64,000 nucleotides of DNA from Naegleria gruberi. Its lineage: Eukaryota. A program made the position numbers and the translations under genes. The stretch's first letter is position 1. Every line of letters begins with the position of its first letter. Positions 14,602-59,870 of this stretch are shown piece by piece. The stretch lies in assembly GCA_000004985.1 (NCBI GenBank), contig GG738867.1. The stretch is one strand, 5' to 3'. The notes under the pieces are model-generated. The model was given only the letters and a program-made list of their open reading frames with translations, was not told the DNA's origin and did no database searches.

Positions 14602-17600
14602 TTATAAAATTTCCTTTCTTTGAGCATTGGGTGGTTCTCTAATTCTGGCAATTTTGATGAATTGCTCGACAGTCATGGTGCTTCCATAGAGTGCAGAGGC
14701 TTCTCGTTGTTGCTTTTGGATCATCATTTGGATTTGGAAAACTGGTTGGATGGCAAAGTCAACTCGACACTTTTCCAATCTGTTCATGGCTGTGGCAAGT
14801 TCTTCAAATTTGGCCCATCGAATCATGTTATTGTGATGTTTCACATAGGTTTCAGTTGAGTAAAAGTAGCTCAATTCTTCCTGTTGTAAAAAATCCATAA
14901 AATGATTCTGAATATACATGAGCTCTCTCAAGTGAGCTTCAACAATTGGAAGACAAGGAGTTCTGCATCCATCAAATAGGTCATTATAATTCTGATATCG
15001 AGAATCTTCAACAACTACTACATCGATATGATAATTGGATGGATCAAATCCGAAAAAGATGTCATATTTGGATTTGAAATGAATGAGGGATGGAGTTGGC
15101 ATGTGAGAGAAGGAAGAATCTTTTGATTTGGCAGTATGGTGATCCTCATAAAAGACTACGAGTGGATTAGTTTCCACTTCTTCAGCTTCATTGTCATCCT
15201 CTGAGGCAATTTGTTGCTGTTTGATTGAGTTGTTGACACTTGTTGGAATTACTCTGACAGTGCTTATTGATTCCTTTCTTCTGACAATATTTGGAGATGG
15301 AAGGGAACTTTCTACATTGACAGAAGTGGAACTATTGATAGAGAATGAGTCGAATGAGCCTGATTTTCTCATTTCTTGAACAATGGTATGGCTGTGTTTT
15401 GGGTGACCGAGATTTCTCACAATACTCTTGAAACTAAAGTTGGCATTTCCTTTGAATTTCTTTTTGGATTCATCGACAGTATGGTAGAGATTTTCCTTAA
15501 TGGCTGGATGTGAAAAGATGGTAGCAAGTGCATGGGCAGCACCATAGTTTTGCATATTGTACAATTCAATAATGATTTGCTTAATCTTGATGATCAATTC
15601 AACACGATCCTTGATGTGTGGTTTATCCAAGACATCACACATAAGCCAATTAGCTCTATCGTGGATCAACTCGAGATATTGACACAATTTAGGACAATTC
15701 ATCTTGAAATATTGAGATCTAAAATTGGAAATGGCCATATTGAAATCCAAGTAGCCATACGTCTTTTTACAATTCTTTACAGAGAGAATGGAATAATTCA
15801 AAAATTCAACACTCGAAATTTCACTATAAAAGTAATAATCCATAATAGTGAATTGTCTAGATAATTCTACAGGTGACACATCTGACCATTTGAGAGAGGA
15901 TGAAAAGACATTTGGAGGAATGTTTGGTCTTGGACATTTTGACGAGTCCATGTAAATGGTTTTGTAAAAGTGATAATATTCGTCAGTGTTGGTATTATCA
16001 TCATCAAGATTTTCATCGGTATCAATTGAAGTTTCCAAGGCATTCCTCTTTCCTCTTCTATTGTTGCCATTAGTGAAGATTACATCAGAATCTGATTCAG
16101 ATAAATGGGACGAGAAGAAATTAGACAACTTATCAGAGAATGACTCTGTGTCGGTCTTTTCAATTTCCAGCGAAGTGAATTGGGTATATTCCTTAATGCT
16201 GACCTTCTTTCTCAGATTCTTCTTACCTAAAATTGTTGCCATTTTCTTTTTCAATGTTGTATTGATAGTTTCACATAATTCGAGTGCATTTCCAACTTTT
16301 GATAGAGTCACAACCGAGTCTGGAATCTTGCTTGACTCAACCTTTTTCAATAAGTGTAGGGATTTTATCTGTTCGATAATCTTTGAGAGAAATTCGAACA
16401 TGTTTTGATTCCATTGATAGTAATATTCCGATAGCCAATAGCTCAACACATCGAGACAACAAATAATAATTTCAATACACTCTACAGTTTCCAAAAGTTT
16501 TGACATTGTGTTGGTAATTCTATCAACGTGTTCACCGACTGATTCTTCAAGAATATTATCATTAGTGACATCAGTAGAGGAAAAGACTCCCTTACTATCT
16601 AATCCGAAATTTTTCATGATCAAGATGAGTGGAAGACTCAACCTTTCGAATATTTTCAATAGGAGACCATCTGGAGACAGAATGTGAACATATCCCCTGA
16701 AGAATGCCTTTCTAAAAGTGTCCTTTGTTTCGATTCTTGTCTCAGGACGTACACAATTCTCTCCAAATACTTCGAAATAATCATTAGCAACAGTATCGTA
16801 TTCTCTGAAACGAATCTTACTCATAGTATCGAATAGTCTGTGCTCAGTGACTGTAACCATTTCAATGAGTTTGTTCAAAGTCAATCCAAATAAGACGTTG
16901 TGATTCTTATCGTCGTCTTTGAATGTATAAAAATTGGAGAATGAGTCAAATAATTCATGATGTTCTCCAGTGCTTTGATTCTTCCTCTCTATGAATAGTT
17001 TTCGTTGTTTGATATCATTTGAGGTCAGAGTTTCGAATGCAATCTTGGGAATGTTTGAGAACTCCTCCCAATAGGAAGGTTTCAGAGAGAGCTTGTTAGA
17101 TTGAGAACGAAGGAGGAATTTTTGGAAGAAATTTTGAGTTACTGTTTTCGAAGGAATGAAAGTGTTTCTTCTGATGGTACTTTCTCTCACTCTCGATTTG
17201 GCAGGCGAGAGAGGAGAATTTTTGCTCGATAAAGTGCTAGCTCTTCCATGAATGGAACGAAGCTTTTCCAATGTTTCGGCAGCTGTTGGTCTTCCAATAG
17301 GATTAGGATCCAATAATTTACAAATCAATTCGGCCAATTCAGTTCCATTAGTTACACATTCCATAACTTGTTGTCTGAGTTGGGCATGGAAATTCACATT
17401 CTGATACACCTCAATGTAAAATTGTCTATTCAAGACTTGGAACAAGAGTTCATAAAATACACAACCAAGAGACCACATATCTGTCGAATATCCATATGGT
17501 TCCTGGGACATCATTTCTGGTGAGCAATATTTAACAGTACCCAGAAGAGTTTGTTCAGAGCTAAAGCTTTGTGGAACAAGAAGCTGGTCAGTGTGAATAC

Positions 17601-18426
17601 TGCCATTATTCCTATTGAAAAAATTACCTCTTTCCTTTTCCAATTCTACTGCTTCTTCACTGGTGGAGAATTTCATCTTTTTCATAGTTTCAAAATCTCC
17701 AATCTTGATCGACTTTTCATCATTGGTAACAAAAATGTTACTCGGCTTTAAATCCAAATGTACAAATCCCTCGGAATGCAAATACTTGACACCCTCTGCA
17801 ATTTGAATCATGTAACTCAATAATTGATCTCTCGAAATGACTTCAAATATTGAATTGACATGACAATTATTCGTACTTTCGTATTGTTTAGTTTTCTTCT
17901 TCAAATAGGTATCCAAATCACCATGTTTAAAGTATTCCATTTGAAAGCAAATCCAATAACTTTGTTTCTTATCAACAAGCTGACTCAAATTCTCAACTTG
18001 CATCTTGATAGATGATGATGAATCGGAAGAAATTGAACCTGCTTCAGCAATTTCATTCTCATCCTCATCGTCATCTTCACTTCCAACAAGTAATTTGGAT
18101 TTTTCACTAGCTTCATTCTTTGTATTGGCAACAAACTGATTACCATTCACATTCCCAGTACCAGTACCAACACTATTTCCTCCTCCACCTCCTCCCAAAT
18201 TAGAATTACTATTCGAATTATTTGTATTCATAATATTTGCAAACTTTTCAAAAAAGATATCTTCAATTTCTACAAGATTTGGCGACTTTAAATGTCTCAA
18301 TTTCCATCCCTCAGATATAAATCTGTTCAACTCATCCTCCGAGTAGCATTGTGTCTTTTTGAGAACTTTTGTAATGTGCTCTCGGGTGACAATGACGAGA
18401 ACCATTTGTTGATTATTCTTCATCAT
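14602..18426 (-). CDS. Dual-domain signalling protein with an N-terminal protein-kinase-like domain (atypical motifs) and a C-terminal RasGEF (CDC25-homology) domain; single exon, 1274 aa.
   Basis: Kinase-like motifs are HLDLKPSNIFV, IKIGDFE (DFG replaced by DFE) and GTVKYCSPEM, and I see no clear GxGxxG loop. The RasGEF motifs are ELSRQFTIMDYYFYSEI, ANWLMCDVL and MQNYGAAHALATIFSHPAI. The MMKNNQ start at 18426 is ATG ATG; an additional upstream exon is possible. Confidence 0.75.
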   Translation of the reverse strand: MMKNNQQMVLVIVTREHITKVLKKTQCYSEDELNRFISEGWKLRHLKSPNLVEIEDIFFEKFANIMNTNNSNSNSNLGGGGGGNSVGTGTGNVNGNQFVANTKNEASEKSKLLVGSEDDDEDENEIAEAGSISSDSSSSIKMQVENLSQLVDKKQSYWICFQMEYFKHGDLDTYLKKKTKQYESTNNCHVNSIFEVISRDQLLSYMIQIAEGVKYLHSEGFVHLDLKPSNIFVTNDEKSIKIGDFETMKKMKFSTSEEAVELEKERGNFFNRNNGSIHTDQLLVPQSFSSEQTLLGTVKYCSPEMMSQEPYGYSTDMWSLGCVFYELLFQVLNRQFYIEVYQNVNFHAQLRQQVMECVTNGTELAELICKLLDPNPIGRPTAAETLEKLRSIHGRASTLSSKNSPLSPAKSRVRESTIRRNTFIPSKTVTQNFFQKFLLRSQSNKLSLKPSYWEEFSNIPKIAFETLTSNDIKQRKLFIERKNQSTGEHHELFDSFSNFYTFKDDDKNHNVLFGLTLNKLIEMVTVTEHRLFDTMSKIRFREYDTVANDYFEVFGENCVRPETRIETKDTFRKAFFRGYVHILSPDGLLLKIFERLSLPLILIMKNFGLDSKGVFSSTDVTNDNILEESVGEHVDRITNTMSKLLETVECIEIIICCLDVLSYWLSEYYYQWNQNMFEFLSKIIEQIKSLHLLKKVESSKIPDSVVTLSKVGNALELCETINTTLKKKMATILGKKNLRKKVSIKEYTQFTSLEIEKTDTESFSDKLSNFFSSHLSESDSDVIFTNGNNRRGKRNALETSIDTDENLDDDNTNTDEYYHFYKTIYMDSSKCPRPNIPPNVFSSSLKWSDVSPVELSRQFTIMDYYFYSEISSVEFLNYSILSVKNCKKTYGYLDFNMAISNFRSQYFKMNCPKLCQYLELIHDRANWLMCDVLDKPHIKDRVELIIKIKQIIIELYNMQNYGAAHALATIFSHPAIKENLYHTVDESKKKFKGNANFSFKSIVRNLGHPKHSHTIVQEMRKSGSFDSFSINSSTSVNVESSLPSPNIVRRKESISTVRVIPTSVNNSIKQQQIASEDDNEAEEVETNPLVVFYEDHHTAKSKDSSFSHMPTPSLIHFKSKYDIFFGFDPSNYHIDVVVVEDSRYQNYNDLFDGCRTPCLPIVEAHLRELMYIQNHFMDFLQQEELSYFYSTETYVKHHNNMIRWAKFEELATAMNRLEKCRVDFAIQPVFQIQMMIQKQQREASALYGSTMTVEQFIKIARIREPPNAQRKEIL

Positions 18427-24186: not shown

Positions 24187-25520
24187 TTATATTGAATTAC
24201 CGTGTAGAGATTCTTCTGCCATTGCATTAAAATTAGAAACAGTTTCGTCCTGTGAAACTGAAATACTACTACAAGGTGTACCATTAATATCATGTGGTGG
24301 AGTTGCAACTGGAGTGCCTGAATCAGAAGGCGACAAGATCAACTCTGAAATCTTTGCCTTCTCTCCAATTGGCACAAATACAGAGCTACGATTTCTTGGA
24401 CTTGTTGGAATTGTTTTCGTTTCGGAACAATTAGATTTCGTATCATCCATATGCAACTCTTTGAAAACTGTCTCAGTCTGAATGAATAACGGATAGAATA
24501 GAGCAAGAGTCAAGCTGGCAAAAAATAAAATTCCAGCACAGTTTACAAAATGCCAAATAAACTTGAATTCGTCCTTGTCAGCAACGAGTGCAGCTCCAAT
24601 GATTACTGCTAAAAGTTGAAGCAAGATACAGGCAATTAAGCCAATCAGGAGAGAGAATGTCACAATAAATGGGTTTTCCATCTTTTTTTGATGACTAGTG
24701 ACGTTCTTAATCTTTTGGATGGACTTTCGAATAGTTTTAATCACTAATATTCCAGAAGTTAAAATAGCAATGGTATCTTTTGCATATAAAACTAGAATAA
24801 TTCCAAATAGTACAAAGTTAAGGGTGGTAGTTTCTGTTTTGTTAAAGATATTAAACTTGGTCAGAGGAACAAATAAACTTGCCAAGGTTAATACAATGAA
24901 AGTGGCAATTACGAAAAGAACTATTGTGATCTGAGTAAAGATTCTAACTCTCTTGAATGCCTTCTTTGAAATGGCTCTCATGGTTACAGCAGTTCTCCAA
25001 CTATTTTTTCTATTAGAATCAAAACTAAATTATTCGAAACTTACAAAACCATCTGAACGAAAAACAAAATCACAAACAACATGATAAAGTTCAGAAACAT
25101 GAAGAATGATGAAAATCCAGCAGTTACCCAAATAGCCATATAGTGTGAGTAAGAAACCCTTTCACCTCTCTCAACAATTATTCTAGCTCTAATGAATAGG
25201 ATATCATTTACTATACGAATCAGTAAATTGATACATTGGATAGCTACCATGGACCCTGCCAATAAGAACATGATGATATGATTCCTTTTCATGATTCCTT
25301 CACCAACTTTCTTCTCAGACGAAACGTGTTGATGTTTAATTCTATTTCGAATAAGACTCAATAACAATCCAAAGCAAATAAAGTAAATAATAAACAAGCA
25401 CAAATAGAAACCAGAATTAGCCATCGAAGCAGCTGGACCCCATATTGGTGGAAAGGCATTCACAGACGAAACATTGACGAAACCATCACCAGGGAACGAA
25501 ACAGTAACATTTGAAGACAT
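24187..25520 (-). CDS. Seven-transmembrane receptor-like protein, paralog A; complement(join(24187..25000,25045..25520)), about 429 aa.
   Basis: I count seven hydrophobic helices, for example FYLCLFIIYFICFGLLLSLI, IIMFLLAGSMVAIQCINLLI and FIWHFVNCAGILFFASLTLALF. The N-terminus is short and N-glycosylation-rich and the C-terminal tail is Ser-rich. A 44-nt intron (GTAAGT..AAAATAG, phase 2) joins ...FFVQMV|FWRTAVTMRAISKK. Confidence 0.6.
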
Positions 25521-25975: not shown

Positions 25976-27296
25976 TCATTCAATCATTGCAATGACAGAT
26001 TCACTACTTGGTAAGGGCATGAAATTCGAAAGTGTTTCACCAGGAGTTTCATTCGAAAGTGCACTACTGCTCGATGTTCCAGAATTTCCCTGCAATATTT
26101 GCAATGTTGCATCACCAGGTGATAAAACCATTGCACTCTTCTTATTATCAATTGAAAGAAGCATTGAATTTCTATTATTCGATTCGTTTCTTCTACTTTC
26201 AGATAGATTAGAAATGTTTGACTTTGTATCATCAATATGCAATTCCTTAATCACCGTCTCTGTCTGAATAAACAATGGATAGAATAATCCAAGTGTCAAA
26301 ATGGCAAACATTAAAATTCCAGCACAATTAATGAAATGCCAAACAAATTTCAATTCTTCCCTATCAGAAACCAAAACTGCTCCGACAATTACTGCAAGGA
26401 ATTGAAGTAAAATGCAAGAAATTAAAGCTATCAGTAAGGAAAATGTGACAAGGAATGGATTTTCCATTTTCTTGTGTTGAGTGGAAATGTTCTTAATTTT
26501 CAGAATGGACTTTCGAATGGTTTTAATGACCAGTATTCCAGAAATGAGAATGGCAATGGTATCTTTGGAGTATAATAGAACGATTAATCCTAGTAAAATA
26601 AAGTTGACTGTGTTGCTTGTTGATTTTGAAAGGTAATCGAATTTCAATAGGGGAACTGAGATACTAATGAGGATTAGTAAGACGAAAGCAGCAAATACAA
26701 AGAGAGAAATGGTGATTTGAGTAAAGATTCTAACTCTCTTGAATGTCTTCTTTGAAATGGCTCTCATTGTTGCGGCAGTTCTCCAACTAGTTTTTCTGTT
26801 AGAAACAAAATATTAAATTATTCGAAACTTACAAAACCATCTGAACGAAAAATAGAATCACAAACAACATGATATAGTTAAGAAACATGAAGAATGATGA
26901 AATACTAGTCAATGACCACATGGCTGCATAGTGAGCGAAGGTTATCCTTTCACCTCTCTCAACAATTAATCTTGCCTCCATGAATAGGATATCAGAAACT
27001 AATCTGATCAGTAAATTAATACATTGAACGGCAACCATGGACCCTGCCAATATGAACATGATCACATGATTACGTTTCATCACTTGTTTAGTTCTGTTTT
27101 GATCCACTCTCTTTCGAATAGTTCTAAACAACAAGCCGAAACATATGAAATAAATGGCAAAGAGAACCAGATAGAAACCAGAATTAGCCATCGAAGCAGC
27201 AGTTCCCCACACAGGAGGAAATACATTCACAGACGAAACATTGACGAAACCATCCTCTGAAAATTTAATGGTTTCATTGCAACAACCTTTTGACAT
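25976..27296 (-). CDS. Seven-transmembrane receptor-like protein, paralog B, tandem duplicate of 24187..25520; complement(join(25976..26786,26833..27296)), about 424 aa.
   Basis: Paralog B is about 70-75% identical to paralog A over the same 7-TM topology, for example MRAISKKTFKRVRIFTQITISLF versus MRAISKKAFKRVRIFTQITIVLF. The intron is at the homologous position (46 nt, GTAAGT..AAACTAG) and the flanking nucleotide sequence is nearly identical to paralog A. Confidence 0.6.
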
Positions 27297-32076: not shown

Positions 32077-32933
32077 TTAAATAATATCTTGAACATTCTT
32101 CAAATCGGTTTCCTTTGAATTGGATGCTGAAATTGATGAGAATAATCCACCTCCACCACTATTTCTTCTCTTCTTCTTTTCATCTTCGAATGGATTGGTT
32201 TTTGGTTGTTGTCCTCTTTCGAAATCTCTCATCTCCCTCACAATACTCTCAAAACATTCCTTGAGATTTTCAGTAGTTTTGGCACTAGCAAAGAATAATG
32301 GTGTATTCTCTGGTAGTAACAAGTGTGTTTTCATGAATTCTTTGGTTTCCTTCTCGGTAATTCCTTTTAATTTTGGATTTTCCTTCAGCATATCAACCTT
32401 ATTTCCGATTATAATTATTGGACATTCCTTTCCATCGACTGGTTTGTTGACATCCATCTTGATTCTGGAAATTCTCTCGGTATACTTTTGTAATTCTTCC
32501 AAGGATTGATGAGAAGTACAATCAAAGACCAGGACGAAACCGAATGCTGTTCTCATATAAACATCCTGGAGAGCAGAGAATTCATCTGATGTATTATAGA
32601 ATTAATAATTATTATATAATTAATAATATTTTGATGATGATGAAAATAGGATAATTTAGAAATTAATTTTCAGAAACACAAACCTTGTCCAGCAGTATCT
32701 ACAATTGTCAAATAGGTTGTTTTGTTATCAACTTTTCTAGCAATATCAAAGGTATTCTCAATAGTTGGATCATAGCTATTTGAAATATTCCATAATGATT
32801 TATTATGTGATAATACTTACATTTCAATGAATGTATCTTGAGTCCATCTAATGGTGATTGACGATTTACCAACACCTCCACCTCCACATACAGCAAATGT
32901 AAAGCATTCTTCTCCTTTATCGTTCTTTGGCAT
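32077..32933 (-). CDS. Ras-family small GTPase (Ras/Rap-like, no CAAX box); complement(join(32077..32585,32684..32775,32821..32933)), about 237 aa.
   Basis: Exon 1 encodes MPKNDKGEECFTFAVCGGGGVGKSSITIRWTQDTFIE (the P-loop). Exon 2 encodes YDPTIENTIDIARKVDNKTTYLTIVDTAGQ (switch I and II). Exon 3 encodes DEFSALQDVYMRTAFGFVLVFD...IIGNKVD...FFASAK. The introns are GTAAGT..CAAATAG (45 nt) and GTTTGT..ACATCAG (98 nt). Confidence 0.8.
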
Positions 32934-51562: not shown

Positions 51563-52489
51563 TTATTGCCCAATAAGGGATGGATAAATTGATCTTGGAT
51601 AACCACCCTCATTAAAAACATTAATAACATATCTATTTCCGTTAATTTTAACATCAGAAAGATTCTTCTTTCCACTTGGTTGTAAACTCTCCAAATAGGC
51701 CAGTGTGGAAAGTGCCAATAGGCACTCTGGAGAAATACCAACAAAAAAGCTTCCACAAGATTTGAATAATTGATTATCAGATTGACCATCTCCATCCACG
51801 TCTTCATCCTGTTTGAAACGAACACAGACATAATCAGGAGTTGACTCATTATCCAATCTTCCAGCAAATGAAATCACATCTTGACCTGTATGATTATCAG
51901 TCGAATCATCCAACAAGTATTTGAACCAATAGTGATAACCACTCACTTTATCACCATTCTTCTCACCTACAACAAGATGCTCAAATCCAGACAGGTCCTT
52001 ATAGTTGTGTAAGTTATATTGTTTGAACCAAATTTCTCTCAATTTCACTTTCAACTCTGTAGGTGTGGAAAGTTTCATATATTTCTGGCCCAGAATTCTC
52101 ATACACTTGGTTTGAACAATACTTTCAAGAAATTGCTCAACTTCCTTTCTCTCCTCCTCAGTATTCACCTCGCGACTATGTTGATCAAGTGAATAATTAT
52201 CAAATAATCTGGAAATTAATTTGTAATTCTTTGCCTGTTTGCTGTTAGATTGTAAAAATTCGGAATTCTTCACCTGAACATAGACATGCTTGGTGGCATC
52301 GTATTGGTACAATTTGAAGAGTGTAAAATTTGGATTGGATCTCTTACGATCCATTCCACACACAACACATATGTATTCTCCACCAATCGGACCTTGTGGT
52401 TTGATCTTGACTGGAGTGAGACGATTCTCATCCGCTTGCCAAATCTCATCCATTAACGTTGCAGAGAATTGATAGGAGTGTGAAGACAT
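51563..52489 (-). CDS. EndoU/XendoU-family poly(U)-specific endoribonuclease; single exon, 308 aa.
   Basis: The catalytic block is SGFEHLVVGEKNGDKVSGYHYWFKY, which matches the XendoU GFEHVF.GE...G.HNW motif. The downstream block is KSCGSFFVGISPECLLALSTLAYL. Confidence 0.8.
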   Translation of the reverse strand: MSSHSYQFSATLMDEIWQADENRLTPVKIKPQGPIGGEYICVVCGMDRKRSNPNFTLFKLYQYDATKHVYVQVKNSEFLQSNSKQAKNYKLISRLFDNYSLDQHSREVNTEEERKEVEQFLESIVQTKCMRILGQKYMKLSTPTELKVKLREIWFKQYNLHNYKDLSGFEHLVVGEKNGDKVSGYHYWFKYLLDDSTDNHTGQDVISFAGRLDNESTPDYVCVRFKQDEDVDGDGQSDNQLFKSCGSFFVGISPECLLALSTLAYLESLQPSGKKNLSDVKINGNRYVINVFNEGGYPRSIYPSLIGQ

Positions 52490-52602: not shown

Positions 52603-53903
52603 TTAATTGAGGGAAATCTTACTCTTAATTGCTACTTGATAGAGAATCTTTCTGTTATCGATATTATCTTCGTTGGAGAAGAGGGCATACTTCATCAAGA
52701 CAGCATTTCTATAATTACAAACAATGAATGTTACAAATACTTGTTCTCCATGAACAAATGCACGGCAACAGGTTTGAATGGCCTTGACATATCTGTGACT
52801 AGTTTGTTCTCCTCTCACATCTTCATTAAATGACAAGAGAGCATACTTGGTTCCTGATCCATTTTGAATAGTTTTCAAAAAATCATGATTGAGTTCATCA
52901 AATGCTGTATTTACATGTTCTGCATCTGTCTTCAAATAGGTAATGGAGAGTGAATTCTTAGTGAGTGGATCAATAAATGACAAGAGCATATCTCTATTTC
53001 TTGCAACTTCAATACTATCTGAATGAAGAACAAAGGATGTAGGAATACTTGGTTCAAAGAATGGTATTTTCAAATCTAAATTACAGAATGAAACACTTGT
53101 ATCATGCGCAGATGATAACAGAGTTCTAGATCTTGCAGTTCCACTAATTCTATGAGTAGTATCCCACTTGTATTCAATGTGAAGTACTCCTGATTTAACT
53201 CCTTGCAATTTCAATGTTTGTTTATATGATACATTGGCTGTTATTTCATCTGGAACAATTTCAAATCTAACTCTTCCTAAAAAGTCCTACATTATTTTCA
53301 CAAATCATTCAAATTCCAAATCAATGACAACATGAACATATTCTCACTTACATCCTTTGTAAATCTATTTCAATATTATAATAAATATTCAACCAAAATC
53401 ATTGTTAGCAACCTACCTATCCCAATCAAACACTTCAAACAATAATTTAAAAGTAGCAACATCTTCCGAACAAATAGAAAATCTAAAAGTTGAATTCCAA
53501 ACAGGATCCAAAGTAGCCATACATGTTTTAGTCTTTCTCATAATTCCACAATTATCTGAAGCATCATCTTCAATCACCATACAATATCTATATTTTCATT
53601 ATCATCATCAATACAATCATCATCATCATCATATACATAAATATATATAATAATTCATTCCGCCATCATCATCATCATCATGATTAATTTTTCATCACAT
53701 ACAAAATTCCGAACATTAAACTCAAACTCTACTTTATATATATAAACTTACGGATCACTACAATATTCTCTGACTAGTAACACTATTATTTACATAAACC
53801 AAAAAACCTACGATTTTCCATTAATATCAGAACTCTCCAATTTTTCTGCCTTTTCCACGAGTAGTATAATTTGATCACCTGGTTGAAAAGATGATGTTGC
53901 CAT
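52603..53903 (-). CDS. C2-domain protein of about 319 aa with a 13-nt micro-exon; complement(join(52603..53286,53352..53364,53417..53587,53812..53903)).
   Basis: Exon 1 is MATSSFQPGDQIILLVEKAEKLESSDINGK(S) and exon 2 is YCMVIEDDASDNCGIMRKTKTCMATLDPVWNSTFRFSI...LLFEVFDWD(R). The micro-exon ATTTACAAAGGAT encodes FTKD. Exon 4 is DFLGRVRFEIVPDE..., a C2 fold. The introns of 224, 52 and 65 nt all have GTAGGT or GTAAGT donors, and the phases are consistent. Confidence 0.6.
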
Positions 53904-55689: not shown

Positions 55690-57306
55690 ATGAGCAAACA
55701 AAATAATCATGAAGAGGATCTTCAACAACCTTCCTCTAATTCCTCTTCAATAGAGAATTCAATACAATCATCATCGCCACAACAACAACAACAAGTTGCT
55801 ACTTCGAATATTGCCACTCTAACAATAGAAGTTCATGAAAATCCAAGTGAAACTCAAGAAATAACAATCCCTCCAACAACAACAACAACAATAACCACTA
55901 CCGACACAAATAACAACATCAATAATACAATTGGAATGTCTCGAATTGGCTCTATCAATGCCATCTCCACAATCAACACCAAACAACAACAACCAACATC
56001 CCCAACTACTAATATTGCCTCCCCCACAGTCGTCAAACCAATTGAAACAAAGGAATGGCAAGTAGACTTTTCCAAATTCCCCATTGTTGATACCGATAGA
56101 ATGAAGCAATCATCAAAGAAAAAGTTGAGAAAGAAGGTTTCCCAATTCTATGAAAAACAAAATGAGCTTGTTGAAGGATATGCTGAATTATATACCAATA
56201 CAGTGACTAAGGAATTTCTGAAGGATTCCGATGAAGAAGGAGAGGAAGGTGATTCCTTTTTAAAAGATACCAGTGCTGATGATGAAAAGAGAGAAGCAGC
56301 TGAGGCCCTTGAGAGGAAGGAGAGTAGATATGCTTCATTTTGTATCCAAGCCAGTTTTTGGGTCAATGTCTTGCTCTTATTCTTGAAAGTTTCTGCCAGT
56401 TTGCTTTCCTTGTCCCTTTCTGTTATTACATCAACCATTGACTCGATTTTGGATTTGGTCTCTGGACTCATTCTCTTCTATACAAACCTTTTGAAGAAAA
56501 AGAAGAGTGATCTTCACTTGTATCCAGCTGGTAAGGAAAGATTGGAACCATTAGGTTTTATCATCTTTGCCACCTGTATGTCAACAGCCAGTTTACAAAT
56601 TATTAAGGAAGGTGTTGTTGGTATCATTACAGGTCTAGTTACTGGCGACCCGTATCTCCCAACAGATTCTCAAAACATTGTAGAATGGATTATGAAACCA
56701 GAGTTACTCAATGGAGAAATGGAATGGATGCTTGGTATCAAAATTCCTTCCACTTTCAAAATGGTATTTTACATTTATGGTCTTTTTGTATTGTTTATTG
56801 CTATTGTGTTGAAATCTGTCCTCTATGTTTTGTGTATCAGAGCTAAGGATTCTCCATCATGTGAAGCTTATGCCTTCGATCACAGAAATGATGTATTGAG
56901 CAATACCTTTTTAATTATATCTCTCTTTGTTTCTCAGTGGGTTTGGTGGTTGGATCCTTTTGGTGCTACTCTGTTATCCATTTATATTATTTATGGTTGG
57001 GTTGGTGAGTCGATGGAACATGTGACTAAATTAGTTGGTTTGACTGCCGAATCAGAGTTTATCAAAAAGTTGACCTTTATTGCTGTAAATCAGAGTGAAA
57101 AGATCATGAAGGTTGAAACTGTTACTGCCTGGTACAGTGGTATGAATATTATTGCTGAGATTCACGTTGTACTTCCACCTAACATGTCCCTTAGAGAAGC
57201 CCATAATATTGGTGAGGATTTGCAAATGAAGATAGAGTCTGTCCCAGAGGTGGAACGATGTTTCGTACATTTGGATTTCAATGATAACCATAAAATAAGT
57301 AAATAA
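55690..57306 (+). CDS. Cation diffusion facilitator (CDF) metal transporter, Mn-CDF (MTP8-11-like) group; single exon, 538 aa.
   Basis: The TM region contains SLSVITSTIDSILDLVSGLILFYT and YPAGKERLEPLGFIIFATCM. The C-terminal cytoplasmic domain is VETVTAWYSGMNIIAEIHVVLPPNMSLREAHNIGEDLQ...CFVHLDF. Confidence 0.85.
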   Translation: MSKQNNHEEDLQQPSSNSSSIENSIQSSSPQQQQQVATSNIATLTIEVHENPSETQEITIPPTTTTTITTTDTNNNINNTIGMSRIGSINAISTINTKQQQPTSPTTNIASPTVVKPIETKEWQVDFSKFPIVDTDRMKQSSKKKLRKKVSQFYEKQNELVEGYAELYTNTVTKEFLKDSDEEGEEGDSFLKDTSADDEKREAAEALERKESRYASFCIQASFWVNVLLLFLKVSASLLSLSLSVITSTIDSILDLVSGLILFYTNLLKKKKSDLHLYPAGKERLEPLGFIIFATCMSTASLQIIKEGVVGIITGLVTGDPYLPTDSQNIVEWIMKPELLNGEMEWMLGIKIPSTFKMVFYIYGLFVLFIAIVLKSVLYVLCIRAKDSPSCEAYAFDHRNDVLSNTFLIISLFVSQWVWWLDPFGATLLSIYIIYGWVGESMEHVTKLVGLTAESEFIKKLTFIAVNQSEKIMKVETVTAWYSGMNIIAEIHVVLPPNMSLREAHNIGEDLQMKIESVPEVERCFVHLDFNDNHKISK

Positions 57307-57452: not shown

Positions 57453-59870
57453 TTAAGTGTTATAATTTCCTCTTCCAACAATTTTATTTCTTTCCAATAG
57501 TTCTTTCACTTGTTTGTTTTTTTCAAATGTAATTTTATCCACTTCCTCAGCTAGTTGAGAGTAACTTTTCAATGGCATGATTTTCTTAAATTCTTCAATT
57601 TCATTGGTAATGTTCAATGTTAAATCTTTAATTTCACCTCGCAAGAATTTCAAAATATTCTCAATTATTAAAAGGTGTAAATAACAATTCAATATTTTGG
57701 TTGAATCTCTTTGAATCATTGTAATGATACATCTGATCAATAGTTCATTAATTCCAACTTCTGGATCGATAGAATGATTGATCAGTTTTTCAATTGCATA
57801 ATGTAATTTCATTTCTCCTTCAGTTGTTGTTATTACAGTATAGAAATACTTTCCATATCCACTAAAGTATGGATAGCCATTATTGTACTTTGAAACATCT
57901 GGATCAGTTACAAATTTTTCATCCAGTTGTAATGGACAATTGGTCAGTAATTTCAAAAAAATACATCCCAAAGAGAAAATATCAGATGAAGTGGTTATTT
58001 GTCCAATATTGTGAGCTAATCTATCGTTATCACCATATTTAAACATGTTGTCAGTGTAATTGTCATGTGAAACCTCAGGAGACATGTAGGCATACTTTCC
58101 ACGTGCAATTGTAATTGAGTGACCTATCTTAATAACTCTTGATGTTTCAAAATCAATAATTTTAAAAGTATCTCCAATTTTAACAATATTTTGCGGATCT
58201 AAATCTCTGTGAGCAATATTATGATCATGAATTGACTTGACTGATCTCAATACTTTGGTGAATATTTCAAACAATTCTATTAATTTGTCCTTGGTTAAGA
58301 AGGTGTCTCGATAAATGTCATTATTTCTGTAAATATAATGTGACAATGATTCCTCTCCAAGCTCCATCACTGAATACAAATGATTTTGAATAACAGCACA
58401 TTCAAAACACTTGATCTTTCCTTCAATATCTGTTCTTTTCAATAAATTAATTGTGTAGTTGGTAGCAGCTTCAGAACCCTCTGGATCATATTTGAATTTC
58501 ATGGCTCGTAAAGATTTTGTTTTTTTGTGAAATACTTTGAAAACGACGCCTTCTGCTCCATATCCTAAAACTGAAATAAAGTCATATTCCATTTTGAAAT
58601 GAATATAGTAATAATTGAGTGCTTTGAAAATTTTTGCTAAATCTCCTCGTAATTCATTGTATTTACACAATATTTGTTTGTAATTCTCAAATGTTTGCTC
58701 ACTTTCAAACCATTTAATGACAAAACTCATAATTTCCATAATTTCCTTTGTTGAATAAAAAGAGGTTTTGAAATTACTTGAAACATTTTCCACAACATTC
58801 TTCAAATCCTTCATGTCTGTTGTTTGGGAAGGATTATCTTTAAGAAAATTATCCAATCTGAAACAAAATAAATGAAAGTTAGCACTTTCTGAAATAGGAA
58901 TATTGTTGGACAATTCTTCGTGGTTCATTTGTTTCAATATTTGGAAGGTGATTAATTTTTCAACAAGTAGTGGTGAATAGGTTTTTTGGTTGAAATAATT
59001 AAATAGTGCGCTTTTGGATTTTGGATTAAATAGTGAACTTAACTCAATAGCAAAATATAAATCCTTTTCTTCCAAATACTTTTTTGAGTATAGTTCAATA
59101 ATATTTGTTGATAGCATTCTATGTAAATCAACACAATCCTCAATGCTTTTGGTAATAGAAGGAGAGAATTCTTTTGCAATCTTGGTATTGTGTTTGAATA
59201 GGGAGAAAATGAAAGGAATATCTCCTTTAAATGAGTTATCAACATGTTCAAGTACCAATCTATTTTGTTTAACAGCTTCCAATACTATTTCTCTATCTTT
59301 TTTAAATGATTCATCTGCACGTTGAAGTGCATTTCCATTTTGTTTAACAGCTTCCAATACAAATTCTCTATCCTTTTTAAAAGATTCGTCAACATATTCA
59401 AGTACCTTTCCATTTTGTTTAACAACATTCAAAACAAAATTTCTATCTTTTTTCAATGATTGATCAGCAAAGTCAAACAAAAATTCATGCAACACAACAA
59501 CTTGCAATAAAAATTGTCTATCTTTTTTCAATGATTCATCCGCATATTTAAGTAACAGTCCATATTGAACTGCAGCATTCCAATCACTATCAGTTTCCTT
59601 TCCTTTAACAGCTTCCAATATTATCTCTCTATCTTTTCTAAGTGATTCATCAGCACATTGAAGTGCCAATCCATTTTGTTTAACAGCTTCCAATACAATT
59701 TCTCTATCTTTTTTGAATGATTCATCTGCATATGTAAGTAACAATCCATTTTGTTTAACAATATTCAATACAAATTCTCTATCTTTTGTACGCTTCAAAA
59801 CTCCCAATACGATATCTTGTAGTTGTTGTTCTTGTTGTTCTGTATTATTGTTATCATTGCTAGCTATCAT
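57453..59870 (-). CDS. Protein kinase with about nine N-terminal DUF4116-type 21-aa repeats; single exon, 805 aa.
   Basis: The repeats follow the pattern VKQNG.AL..ADES.KKDRE.VLEAV. The kinase motifs are LGYGAEGVVFKV, RAMKFK, HRDLDPQN (Asp in place of the usual Lys), IIDFETSR (DFG replaced by DFE) and YMSPEV. Confidence 0.75.
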   Translation of the reverse strand: MIASNDNNNTEQQEQQLQDIVLGVLKRTKDREFVLNIVKQNGLLLTYADESFKKDREIVLEAVKQNGLALQCADESLRKDREIILEAVKGKETDSDWNAAVQYGLLLKYADESLKKDRQFLLQVVVLHEFLFDFADQSLKKDRNFVLNVVKQNGKVLEYVDESFKKDREFVLEAVKQNGNALQRADESFKKDREIVLEAVKQNRLVLEHVDNSFKGDIPFIFSLFKHNTKIAKEFSPSITKSIEDCVDLHRMLSTNIIELYSKKYLEEKDLYFAIELSSLFNPKSKSALFNYFNQKTYSPLLVEKLITFQILKQMNHEELSNNIPISESANFHLFCFRLDNFLKDNPSQTTDMKDLKNVVENVSSNFKTSFYSTKEIMEIMSFVIKWFESEQTFENYKQILCKYNELRGDLAKIFKALNYYYIHFKMEYDFISVLGYGAEGVVFKVFHKKTKSLRAMKFKYDPEGSEAATNYTINLLKRTDIEGKIKCFECAVIQNHLYSVMELGEESLSHYIYRNNDIYRDTFLTKDKLIELFEIFTKVLRSVKSIHDHNIAHRDLDPQNIVKIGDTFKIIDFETSRVIKIGHSITIARGKYAYMSPEVSHDNYTDNMFKYGDNDRLAHNIGQITTSSDIFSLGCIFLKLLTNCPLQLDEKFVTDPDVSKYNNGYPYFSGYGKYFYTVITTTEGEMKLHYAIEKLINHSIDPEVGINELLIRCIITMIQRDSTKILNCYLHLLIIENILKFLRGEIKDLTLNITNEIEEFKKIMPLKSYSQLAEEVDKITFEKNKQVKELLERNKIVGRGNYNT
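59270..59800 (-). repeat. Intragenic tandem nucleotide repeats of about 60-63 nt encoding the DUF4116-like protein repeats of the kinase.
   Basis: Units of the form TTGTTTAACAGCTTCCAATAC.ATTTCTCTATCTTTTTT.AATGATTCATC recur about eight times. Confidence 0.7.

What the first reader, a model, noticed from the sequence alone, without database searches (positions are those of the whole stretch)
52603..53903. C2-domain gene that needs a 13-nt micro-exon to stay in frame
The C2 fold is split across exons. The exon ending ...FDWD(R) and the exon beginning DFLGRVRFEIVPDE can be joined in frame only by inserting the 13-nt exon ATTTACAAAGGAT (FTKD). It sits between a TGAAATAG acceptor and a GTAAGT donor. 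A direct junction gives an immediate stop. Micro-exons this small are rare and are usually missed by gene predictors.
Basis: inference. Interest (0 to 1): 0.5.

Follow-up and report, generated by a model that had tools for sequence, protein, structure and literature searches.

The report
Two micro-exons in Naegleria C2 gene
A small, apparently unannotated Naegleria gruberi gene for a calcium-sensor-type C2 protein can only be read correctly if two tiny exons (13 and 6 bases) are spliced in; this is a well-supported gene-model correction, not a new kind of biology.

Summary
On the minus strand of 52603-53903 (Naegleria gruberi) lies a 5-exon, 321-aa gene. The 13-nt exon ATTTACAAAGGAT (53364-53352) sits between aaatag and gtaagt. 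A direct junction gives R-T-F-stop.

The claim that only this exon restores the frame is overstated. Cryptic in-frame junctions exist, and 72.5% of shuffled introns offer some frame-restoring AG..GT segment.

The real support is comparative:
- The model gives FDWD-RFTKD-DFLG, ungapped against synaptotagmin and PKC C2 domains.
- All seven homologous loci found have five residues between DWD and DFLG, and a phase-0 intron right before DFLG.
- One homologue encodes the identical DWDRFTKD|DFLG contiguously.
- C2 profile score is 69.7 bits with the exon, against 40-52 bits for alternative junctions.

It supplies the D-P of GKSDPY. A distant homologue has it at the same position and phase (AGATCC).

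Both micro-exons encode parts of the Ca2+-binding loops. The C-terminal half has a Mog1/PsbP-like fold. No N. gruberi protein in the public collections matches the gene, so it appears unannotated. Transcript proof is lacking. This is a new member of a known kind, of moderate-to-low interest.

The parts
53812..53903 (-). Exon 1 (92 nt), ATG at 53903. Encodes MATSSFQPGDQIILLVEKAEKLESSDINGK and the first two bases of the S31 codon. Donor is TC|gtaggt.
   Evidence: The N-terminus aligns with homologues P0018, P0019 and the L010 model.
53758..53811 (-). Intron 1 (54 nt), gtaggt...attgtag.
   Evidence: The equivalent intron in L010 is 53 nt.
53752..53757 (-). Micro-exon A (6 nt, TGATCC). Completes S31, encodes D32 and the first two bases of P33 (the GKS-DP-YC motif of Ca2+-binding loop 1).
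   Evidence: Including it adds 12.1 bits of C2 score (69.7 vs 57.6). An AG|N6|GT segment encoding x-D-P occurs in 4e-5 of shuffles. L010 has the same exon, AGATCC at L010:2496-2501, in the same phase between atatag and gtaggt.
53588..53751 (-). Intron 2 (164 nt), gtaagt...aaatatag. Contains (GAT)n microsatellites.
   Evidence: The L010 equivalent is 187 nt.
53417..53587 (-). Exon 3 (171 nt). Encodes the last base of P33 through the first two bases of R90 (YCMVIEDD...LLFEVFDWD). Donor is AG|gtaggt.
   Evidence: Read-through hits TAG at 53415.
53365..53416 (-). Intron 3 (52 nt), gtaggttgctaac...gaaatag, phase 2 within the R90 codon. Not present in any of the seven homologous loci examined.
53352..53364 (-). 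Micro-exon B (13 nt, ATTTACAAAGGAT). Encodes the third base of R90 plus F91 T92 K93 D94, within Ca2+-binding loop 3. This is the feature of the finding.
53287..53351 (-). Intron 4 (65 nt), gtaagt...aatgtag, phase 0, immediately before DFLG. The position is conserved in all seven homologous loci.
52603..53286 (-). Exon 5 (684 nt including stop TAA at 52605-52603). Encodes the last two C2 strands (DFLGRVRFEI...GVLHIEYKW), a low-confidence linker and a C-terminal Mog1/PsbP-like domain.

Best explanation
The region is a protein-coding gene of Naegleria gruberi with five exons of 92, 6, 171, 13 and 684 nt and four short GT-AG introns of 54, 164, 52 and 65 nt. It encodes a 321-aa protein with an N-terminal synaptotagmin/PKC-type C2 domain and a C-terminal Mog1/PsbP-like domain.

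Shown here: the 13-nt exon is the piece of an ancestrally continuous exon (...DWD-RFTKD) that became isolated. N. gruberi carries an extra intron inside the Arg codon, 13 nt upstream of an old, family-wide intron that sits right before DFLG. The 6-nt exon is an older micro-exon, shared with a very divergent family member.

Inferred from established knowledge of splicing: in this intron-poor, short-intron genome each 50-160-nt intron is recognised as a unit (intron definition), so exon length is not what is read. A 6- or 13-nt exon cannot hold a 3'-splice-site complex and a U1 snRNP at once, so the two flanking introns are probably removed one after the other, as documented for plant micro-exons of 15 nt or less.

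Inferred from alignment: the protein has all five acidic Ca2+ ligands of a type-I C2 domain only when both micro-exons are included. D26, D87 and D89 come from ordinary exons, D32 from the 6-nt exon and D95 from exon 5. T92, from the 13-nt exon, aligns with Syt1 S235. The likely function is Ca2+-dependent membrane docking of a Mog1/PsbP-like protein- or ligand-binding module.
For: Organism: the neighbouring XendoU ORF is 100% identical over its full length to an N. gruberi protein, and GC is about 33% (PMC8296547 Table 2).

Anatomy: all four introns are GT..AG with GTAAGT or GTAGGT donors and TAG acceptors. They are of the same size and type as other probable introns in the window.

Uniqueness: this is the only feasible frame-restoring internal exon. 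A 13-nt exon with sites this strong occurs in 0.25% of shuffles.

Homology: C2 scores 69.7 bits for the full model. It scores 57.1 with FTKD deleted, 50.6 and 51.5 with the alternative acceptors, and 40.3 and 41.4 with cryptic donors. The real peptide beats nine of nine random 13-mer peptides, which score 59.5-67.6. Alignments to Syt1, Syt3, Syt7 and PKC C2 structures are ungapped through both micro-exon peptides.

Comparative: seven homologues share the C-terminal domain. Exact spliced mapping of two N. fowleri genes puts a phase-0 intron at ..RFSRN|DFLG and ..RLTPN|DFIG. The same intron and five-residue spacing occur in L005, L007, L009, L010 and L011. L011 encodes DWDRFTKD|DFLG, the identical peptide.

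6-nt exon: it is conserved in L010 at the same phase and position, with similar flanking intron lengths of 53/187 vs 54/164 nt. The chance of an x-D-P-encoding 6-mer between AG and GT is 4e-5.

Sequential splicing of micro-exons: PMC8831610.
Against: No transcript evidence of any kind was reachable, so expression and the two junction pairs are inferred.

No other family member has the intron that creates the 13-nt exon. As an exon it has no cross-species support; only its peptide and its downstream intron do.

The residue-level signal of the four encoded amino acids is modest. One of nine random peptides reached 67.6 bits against 69.7.

The family is very divergent (23-48% identity), so orthology between the N. 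gruberi gene and L010 or L011 is uncertain.

No annotated N. gruberi protein matches the gene. That could mean it was missed, or that annotators had no expression support for it.
Confidence: 0.85

Rival explanations
1. There is no micro-exon. A single 144- or 150-nt intron runs from the 53416 donor to an acceptor inside 'exon 5' (53272 or 53266), giving FDWDR-VRFEI or FDWDR-FEIVP.
For: Both junctions are GT..AG and in frame, with no stop.
Against: They delete the DFLG motif and the third-loop Asp. The C2 profile match is truncated at position 76 of 104 and drops to 50.6 and 51.5 bits. The acceptors (ttaggaAG, agagtTAG) lie inside sequence that encodes the family-wide DFLGR motif. All seven homologues keep DWD-x5-DFLG with the intron right before DFLG.
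Confidence: 0.04
2. The locus is a decaying or silent pseudogene. The 52-nt interruption of the DWDR/FTKD codons is an insertion that merely looks like an intron, and the locus makes no functional mRNA.
For: No annotated N. gruberi protein matches it. The interruption is unique to N. gruberi among the eight loci. No transcript data are available.
Against: All five exons are open. All conserved C2 core and Ca2+-ligand residues are intact. The interruption has a GTAGGT donor, a UGCUAAC-like motif and an ATAG acceptor, and a typical local intron length. The 227-codon exon 5 still folds confidently into the family's C-terminal domain. Failure of annotation is expected, because exon 5 has no in-frame ATG until about residue 193 of the protein and the upstream exons need two micro-exons (PMC8831610).
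Confidence: 0.07
3. The micro-exons are real but alternatively used. Skipping the 6-nt exon stays in frame and yields a C2 domain lacking the loop-1 Asp-Pro. Skipping the 13-nt exon yields a frameshift and stop (RTF*), so expression or Ca2+ sensitivity would be tuned by splicing.
For: Both skips are mechanically possible. The 6-nt skip stays in frame and still scores as C2 at 57.6 bits. Both micro-exons map to Ca2+-binding loops.
Against: Nothing was observed that indicates regulation. The strong consensus sites argue for constitutive use. In intron-definition systems the usual failure mode is intron retention rather than exon skipping (PMC8831610).
Confidence: 0.12

Closest known systems
Ultra-short (15 nt or less) coding micro-exons of plants (Yu et al. 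2022, PMC8831610), e.g. the 9-nt invertase micro-exon that encodes part of the beta-fructosidase motif
   Same: These are constitutive internal coding exons of a few nucleotides with canonical, strong flanking sites. They encode part of a conserved functional motif and are routinely missed by annotation, giving truncated, frameshifted or missing gene models. They arise and disappear by gain or loss of a flanking intron. The flanking introns are removed consecutively.
   Different: This case is in a heterolobosean amoeba with 1.7 exons per gene, and no micro-exon report for Naegleria was found in the searched library. No RNA evidence exists here. The 13-nt exon appears lineage-specific rather than deeply conserved.
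Neuronal micro-exons of animals (3-27 nt, SRRM4/nSR100- and PRP-40-dependent)
   Same: Tiny exons that often lie in surface loops of protein domains. Synaptotagmin-type C2 proteins are among the classic targets.
   Different: The animal micro-exons are mostly multiples of 3, alternatively spliced and tissue-regulated. They are embedded in long introns and need dedicated enhancers under exon definition. Here the introns are 52-164 nt and one exon is not a multiple of 3, so it is obligatory. No regulation is indicated.
Type-I Ca2+-binding C2 domains (synaptotagmin C2A, PKC alpha/beta/gamma C2; Pfam PF00168)
   Same: Pfam score is 69.7 bits. Alignment to solved structures is ungapped, and all five Asp ligands and the SDPY and DxDxxxxxD motifs are in place.
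   Different: It is a single C2 domain fused to a Mog1/PsbP-like domain. This architecture was found only in Naegleria and in unidentified metagenomic eukaryotes. Ca2+ or lipid binding is untested.
Mog1 / PsbP-like fold (Ran guanine-nucleotide release factor Mog1; PsbP; DcrB, LpqN and others)
   Different: Sequence identity is 10-11%. No Pfam or PDB sequence-profile match was found. There is no evidence of Ran binding.

Membership tests
Coding micro-exon (internal exon of 15 nt or less) | Bounded by a canonical 3' splice site (AG) upstream and 5' splice site (GT) downstream, with flanking introns of viable length | tested here: met
   The 13-nt exon is aaatag|ATTTACAAAGGAT|gtaagt with introns of 52 and 65 nt. 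The 6-nt exon is attgtag|TGATCC|gtaagt with introns of 54 and 164 nt. These sizes match other probable introns in the window.
Coding micro-exon (internal exon of 15 nt or less) | Inclusion is required for the reading frame and/or restores a conserved protein motif | tested here: met
   The 13-nt exon restores the frame and adds 12.6 bits of C2 score over deletion of FTKD, and 18-29 bits over alternative junctions. The 6-nt exon is not needed for frame but adds 12.1 bits and restores SDPY.
Coding micro-exon (internal exon of 15 nt or less) | Conserved as a separate exon in homologous genes | tested here: inconclusive
   The 6-nt exon is conserved in L010. The 13-nt exon is not: its downstream intron is present in all seven homologous loci, but its upstream intron is in none. 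Its peptide is conserved and is identical in L011.
Coding micro-exon (internal exon of 15 nt or less) | Observed in mature mRNA (split reads or cDNA) | not testable with these tools
   No N. gruberi transcript data could be reached.
C2 domain, Ca2+-binding type (PF00168) | Profile score above the Pfam gathering threshold | tested here: met
   67.6-69.7 bits against a cut-off of 22.
C2 domain, Ca2+-binding type (PF00168) | Five acidic ligands in loops 1 and 3 (Syt1 D172, D178, D230, D232, D238) | tested here: met
   The ungapped alignment to Syt1 C2A places D26, D32, D87, D89 and D95 at these positions. The Syt1 residue numbering comes from established knowledge.
C2 domain, Ca2+-binding type (PF00168) | Ca2+-dependent phospholipid binding | not testable with these tools
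   This needs biochemistry.
Mog1/PsbP-like fold | Structural superposition on Mog1 or PsbP | tested here: met
   [not shown]
Mog1/PsbP-like fold | Sequence-level family membership (Pfam Mog1 or PsbP) | tested here: not met
   There was no Pfam hit other than C2 at E<=1. The profile search of PDB sequences found no Mog1 or PsbP.

The most novel reading that the evidence does not exclude
The two micro-exons each carry part of a Ca2+-binding loop. They could act as splice-controlled switches. Omitting the 6-nt exon would produce an in-frame, Ca2+-blind C2 isoform. Omitting the 13-nt exon or retaining its introns would shut the gene off through a premature stop. That would be regulated micro-exon splicing in a deep-branching unicellular eukaryote. 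The 6-nt exon, shared by family members only about 28% identical, would also be among the shortest conserved exons documented outside plants and animals.
Probability: 0.12. Interest if true: 0.55.

Novelty: new member of a known kind. Interest (0 to 1): 0.35.

Why it matters
Practically, it adds a gene to the N. gruberi catalogue. No protein in two very large public collections matches it. The case also shows why: with two micro-exons and no early ATG in the long exon, standard predictors fail. The same blind spot probably hides other genes or domains in Naegleria genomes, including the pathogen N. fowleri.

Conceptually, it shows that a heterolobosean spliceosome is expected to handle 6- and 13-nt exons. 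It gives a clean example of micro-exon birth by gain of an intron next to an older, conserved one. It also defines a small, fast-evolving family of C2 plus Mog1/PsbP-like proteins.

None of this overturns current understanding.

Tried and rejected
(1) Synteny. The XendoU neighbour's orthologues in N. lovaniensis (L001) and Willaertia magna (L002) have no C2 gene next to them, and tblastn of the model against them found nothing.

(2) The window has no paralogue of the gene.

The search for a transcript-derived identical protein could therefore only be done indirectly. Searches found no near-identical protein.

(4) The word-indexed search with the family alignment returned only P0020.

(5) The search for related loci failed with the alignment. 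With the single protein it found no relative in JGI metagenomes. A DNA pattern for the exon1 / 6-nt-exon arrangement found nothing there.

(6) Introner-like origin of the introns: blastn of the four introns against the window gave only self-hits and microsatellite matches.

(7) The AFDB fold library was unavailable.

(8) A sequence-profile link of the C-terminal domain to Mog1 or PsbP was not found.

(9) A plus-strand gene under the region was rejected: there are no ORFs of note.

(10) Literature searches for Naegleria micro-exons found no relevant paper.

(11) The frame argument was rejected as sufficient evidence after the shuffle tests.

Full report
**Source and orientation.** The window is Naegleria gruberi. 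The ORF at 51563-52489 (minus), directly downstream of the feature, is 100% identical over its full length to an NCBI 'predicted protein [Naegleria gruberi]' on a 424-kb contig. The window's 30-37% GC fits the published 33% (PMC8296547, Table 2). The window is densely packed with long, mostly uninterrupted ORFs encoding eukaryotic domains such as PAN2, kinases, RasGEF and DUF4116. The feature is on the minus strand.

**The observation.** Reading the reverse complement and assembling the pieces gives the following model:

| Piece | Coordinates | Length | Notes |
|---|---|---|---|
| Exon 1 | 53903-53812 | 92 nt | ATG at 53903 |
| Exon 2 | 53757-53752 | 6 nt | TGATCC |
| Exon 3 | 53587-53417 | 171 nt | |
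| Exon 4 | 53364-53352 | 13 nt | ATTTACAAAGGAT |
| Exon 5 | 53286-52603 | 684 nt | includes TAA stop |

- The introns are 54, 164, 52 and 65 nt. All are GT..AG, with GTAGGT or GTAAGT donors and TAG acceptors.
- The CDS is 966 nt and encodes 321 aa.
The 13-mer lies between attgaaatag and gtaagt.
- A direct join of 53417 to 53286 reads FDWDRTF-stop.

**Is it more than chance?** The frame argument alone is weak.
- From the same donor, the acceptors at 53272 and 53266 are also in frame. So are cryptic donors at 53433 and 53460. 'Only' is therefore overstated.
- In shuffles of the 130-nt interval, 72.5% contained some frame-restoring AG..GT exon and 15.6% one of exactly 13 nt.
- Only 0.25% contained a 13-nt exon with sites as good as those observed.
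- Within the real interval, the 13-mer is the only feasible internal exon that restores the frame.
- Other probable introns in the window are 40-65 nt with the same donor and acceptor types. The two introns flanking the micro-exon therefore look like ordinary N. gruberi introns.

**Homology evidence.** Pfam C2 (PF00168) scores for alternative models of the N-terminal 130-149 residues were as follows:

| Model | C2 score (bits) |
|---|---|
| Both micro-exons included | 69.7 |
| 6-nt exon omitted | 57.6 |
| FTKD deleted | 57.1 |
| Alternative acceptors (53272, 53266) | 50.6, 51.5 (profile match truncated at position 76 of 104) |
| Cryptic donors (53433, 53460) | 40.3, 41.4 |

- Replacing RFTKD with nine peptides from random 13-mers gave 59.5-67.6 bits. 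The correct spacing is worth a few bits and the actual residues several more. The real peptide is the best of ten, though not by a wide margin.
- Against solved structures, the model aligns without gaps through both micro-exon peptides. For example, vfdwdrftkddflgrv aligns with Syt1 vydfdrfskhdiige, Syt7 vldydrfsrndpige and Syt3 vydfdrfsrhdligq. Likewise dingksdpyc aligns with dmggtsdpyv.
- Using the established Syt1 C2A numbering, D26, D32, D87, D89 and D95 occupy the positions of D172, D178, D230, D232 and D238. T92 occupies the position of S235.
- D32 comes from the 6-nt exon and T92 from the 13-nt exon.

**Comparative evidence.** The full model has no close relative in a 5.8-billion-protein collection. 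An exhaustive HMMER scan of 1.84 billion representatives with the exon-5 peptide found seven distant homologues at 24-33% identity, and nothing closer. No public gene model therefore covers this locus. The gene appears unannotated in N. gruberi.
- Two homologues are N. fowleri genes with the same C2 plus C-terminal-domain architecture. Exact spliced mapping places a phase-0 intron at ..YDYDRFSRN|DFLG.. and ..YDWDRLTPN|DFIG... This is exactly where N. gruberi intron 4 lies.
- Five metagenomic loci had been split into separate ORFs by prokaryote-style gene calling. All show the same GT..AG phase-0 intron (44-159 nt) before D[FS][LI]G, and five residues between DWD and DFLG.
- One of them, L011, reads EVYDWDRFTKD|gtaagt..45 nt..acag|DFLGK. 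This is the identical RFTKD peptide predicted by the N. gruberi micro-exon, encoded there in a continuous exon with R = CGT.
- The 13-nt exon is therefore the tail of an ancestrally continuous exon. It was cut off by an additional intron inside the Arg codon that only N. gruberi has among the eight loci. Gain in the N. gruberi lineage is the parsimonious reading, but this is an inference.

**A second micro-exon.** Exon 1 ends GGA AAA TC|gtaggt and exon 3 begins atatag|A TAT TGT.
- Joining them directly stays in frame but gives GKS-YC, which lacks the D-P of the near-universal SDPY motif.
- The hexamer TGATCC at 53757-53752, between attgtag and gtaagt, restores GKSDPYC.
- In shuffles, an AG|N6|GT encoding x-D-P appeared in 4e-5 of cases.
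- The metagenomic homologue L010 is 28% identical over the full length (E = 2e-39). It has the same arrangement...GGA TTT TC|gtacgt..53 nt..atatag|AGATCC|gtaggt..187 nt..acaaag|T TAT TGC, giving NGFSDPYCKV.
- The position, phase and even flanking intron lengths (54/164 vs 53/187 nt) match.
- The 6-nt exon is therefore an old, conserved feature of one branch of the family. The other six loci encode SDPY or SDPF contiguously.

**The protein.**
- Residues 1 to about 135 form a type-I C2 domain.
- Exon 5 modelled with the eight-sequence alignment gave mean pLDDT 78.4, with a disordered linker at exon-5 residues 45-63.
- The family members are only 23-48% identical to each other.

**Mechanism.**
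- Shown: the gene anatomy, the conserved spacing and the intron positions.
- Inferred: in a genome averaging 1.7 exons per gene with short introns, introns are recognised as units. Exons of 6 and 13 nt are too short to carry complexes for both neighbouring introns at once, so the introns are presumably removed sequentially. This has been shown for plant micro-exons of 15 nt or less, where such exons are also pervasively missed by annotation (PMC8831610).
- Exon 5 has no in-frame ATG until about residue 193 of the protein. This would explain why no model was called.

**Rivals.**
- A single intron to a cryptic acceptor is possible on paper. It would destroy the DFLG motif that every family member keeps.
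- A pseudogene cannot be excluded without RNA. All exons are open and all conserved residues are intact.
- Regulated use of the micro-exons is the most interesting reading. Skipping the 6-nt exon would give an in-frame Ca2+-blind isoform, and skipping the 13-nt exon would give a premature stop. Nothing observed supports this.

**Verdict.** The analysis adds a second, conserved 6-nt micro-exon, the evolutionary origin of the 13-nt exon, the organism, the domain architecture and the apparent absence of the gene from public annotation. Micro-exons missed by predictors are a known phenomenon, so this is a new member of a known kind. It is useful for annotation and mildly interesting for intron evolution in Heterolobosea. 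No report of Naegleria micro-exons was found in the searched library.

Noticed in passing
window 53752-53757 (minus): A second micro-exon of only 6 nt (TGATCC) in the same gene supplies the D-P of GKSDPY. It is conserved at the same position and phase in the metagenomic homologue L010 (AGATCC, L010:2496-2501).
   Followed up: yes
window 52603-53903 (minus): No protein in the 5.8-billion or 1.84-billion-representative collections is more than 33% identical to exon 5, although neighbouring N. gruberi proteins are present. The gene therefore appears to be missing from the public N. gruberi annotation.
   Followed up: partly
[not shown]
   Followed up: partly
window 53600-53685 (intron 2, minus): (GAT)n microsatellite runs lie inside the 164-nt intron 2. 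Similar short GAT/ATC runs occur elsewhere in the window, for example near 32607-32648 and 55759-55775.
   Followed up: no
window 24187-25044 and 25976-26832 (minus): Two neighbouring ORFs of 263-264 aa seem to be tandem paralogues. Each is preceded by a tttGTAAGT donor, and both share a ..CAAGAGAGTTAG candidate acceptor context about 101-103 nt downstream. This suggests a duplicated gene with a conserved short intron.
   Followed up: no
L003, L004, L007 vs window, L005, L009, L010, L011: Intron positions in this small family are fluid. The two N. fowleri genes and L007 have an intron before I(I/K)KKTLNP that the others lack. Only N. gruberi and L010 have the introns around the 6-nt exon, and only N. 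gruberi has the intron in the DWD-R codon.
   Followed up: partly
window 57453-59870 (minus) and 14602-18426 (minus): Large signalling proteins typical of Naegleria are present: five DUF4116 repeats fused to a protein kinase, and a kinase fused to RasGEF.
   Followed up: no
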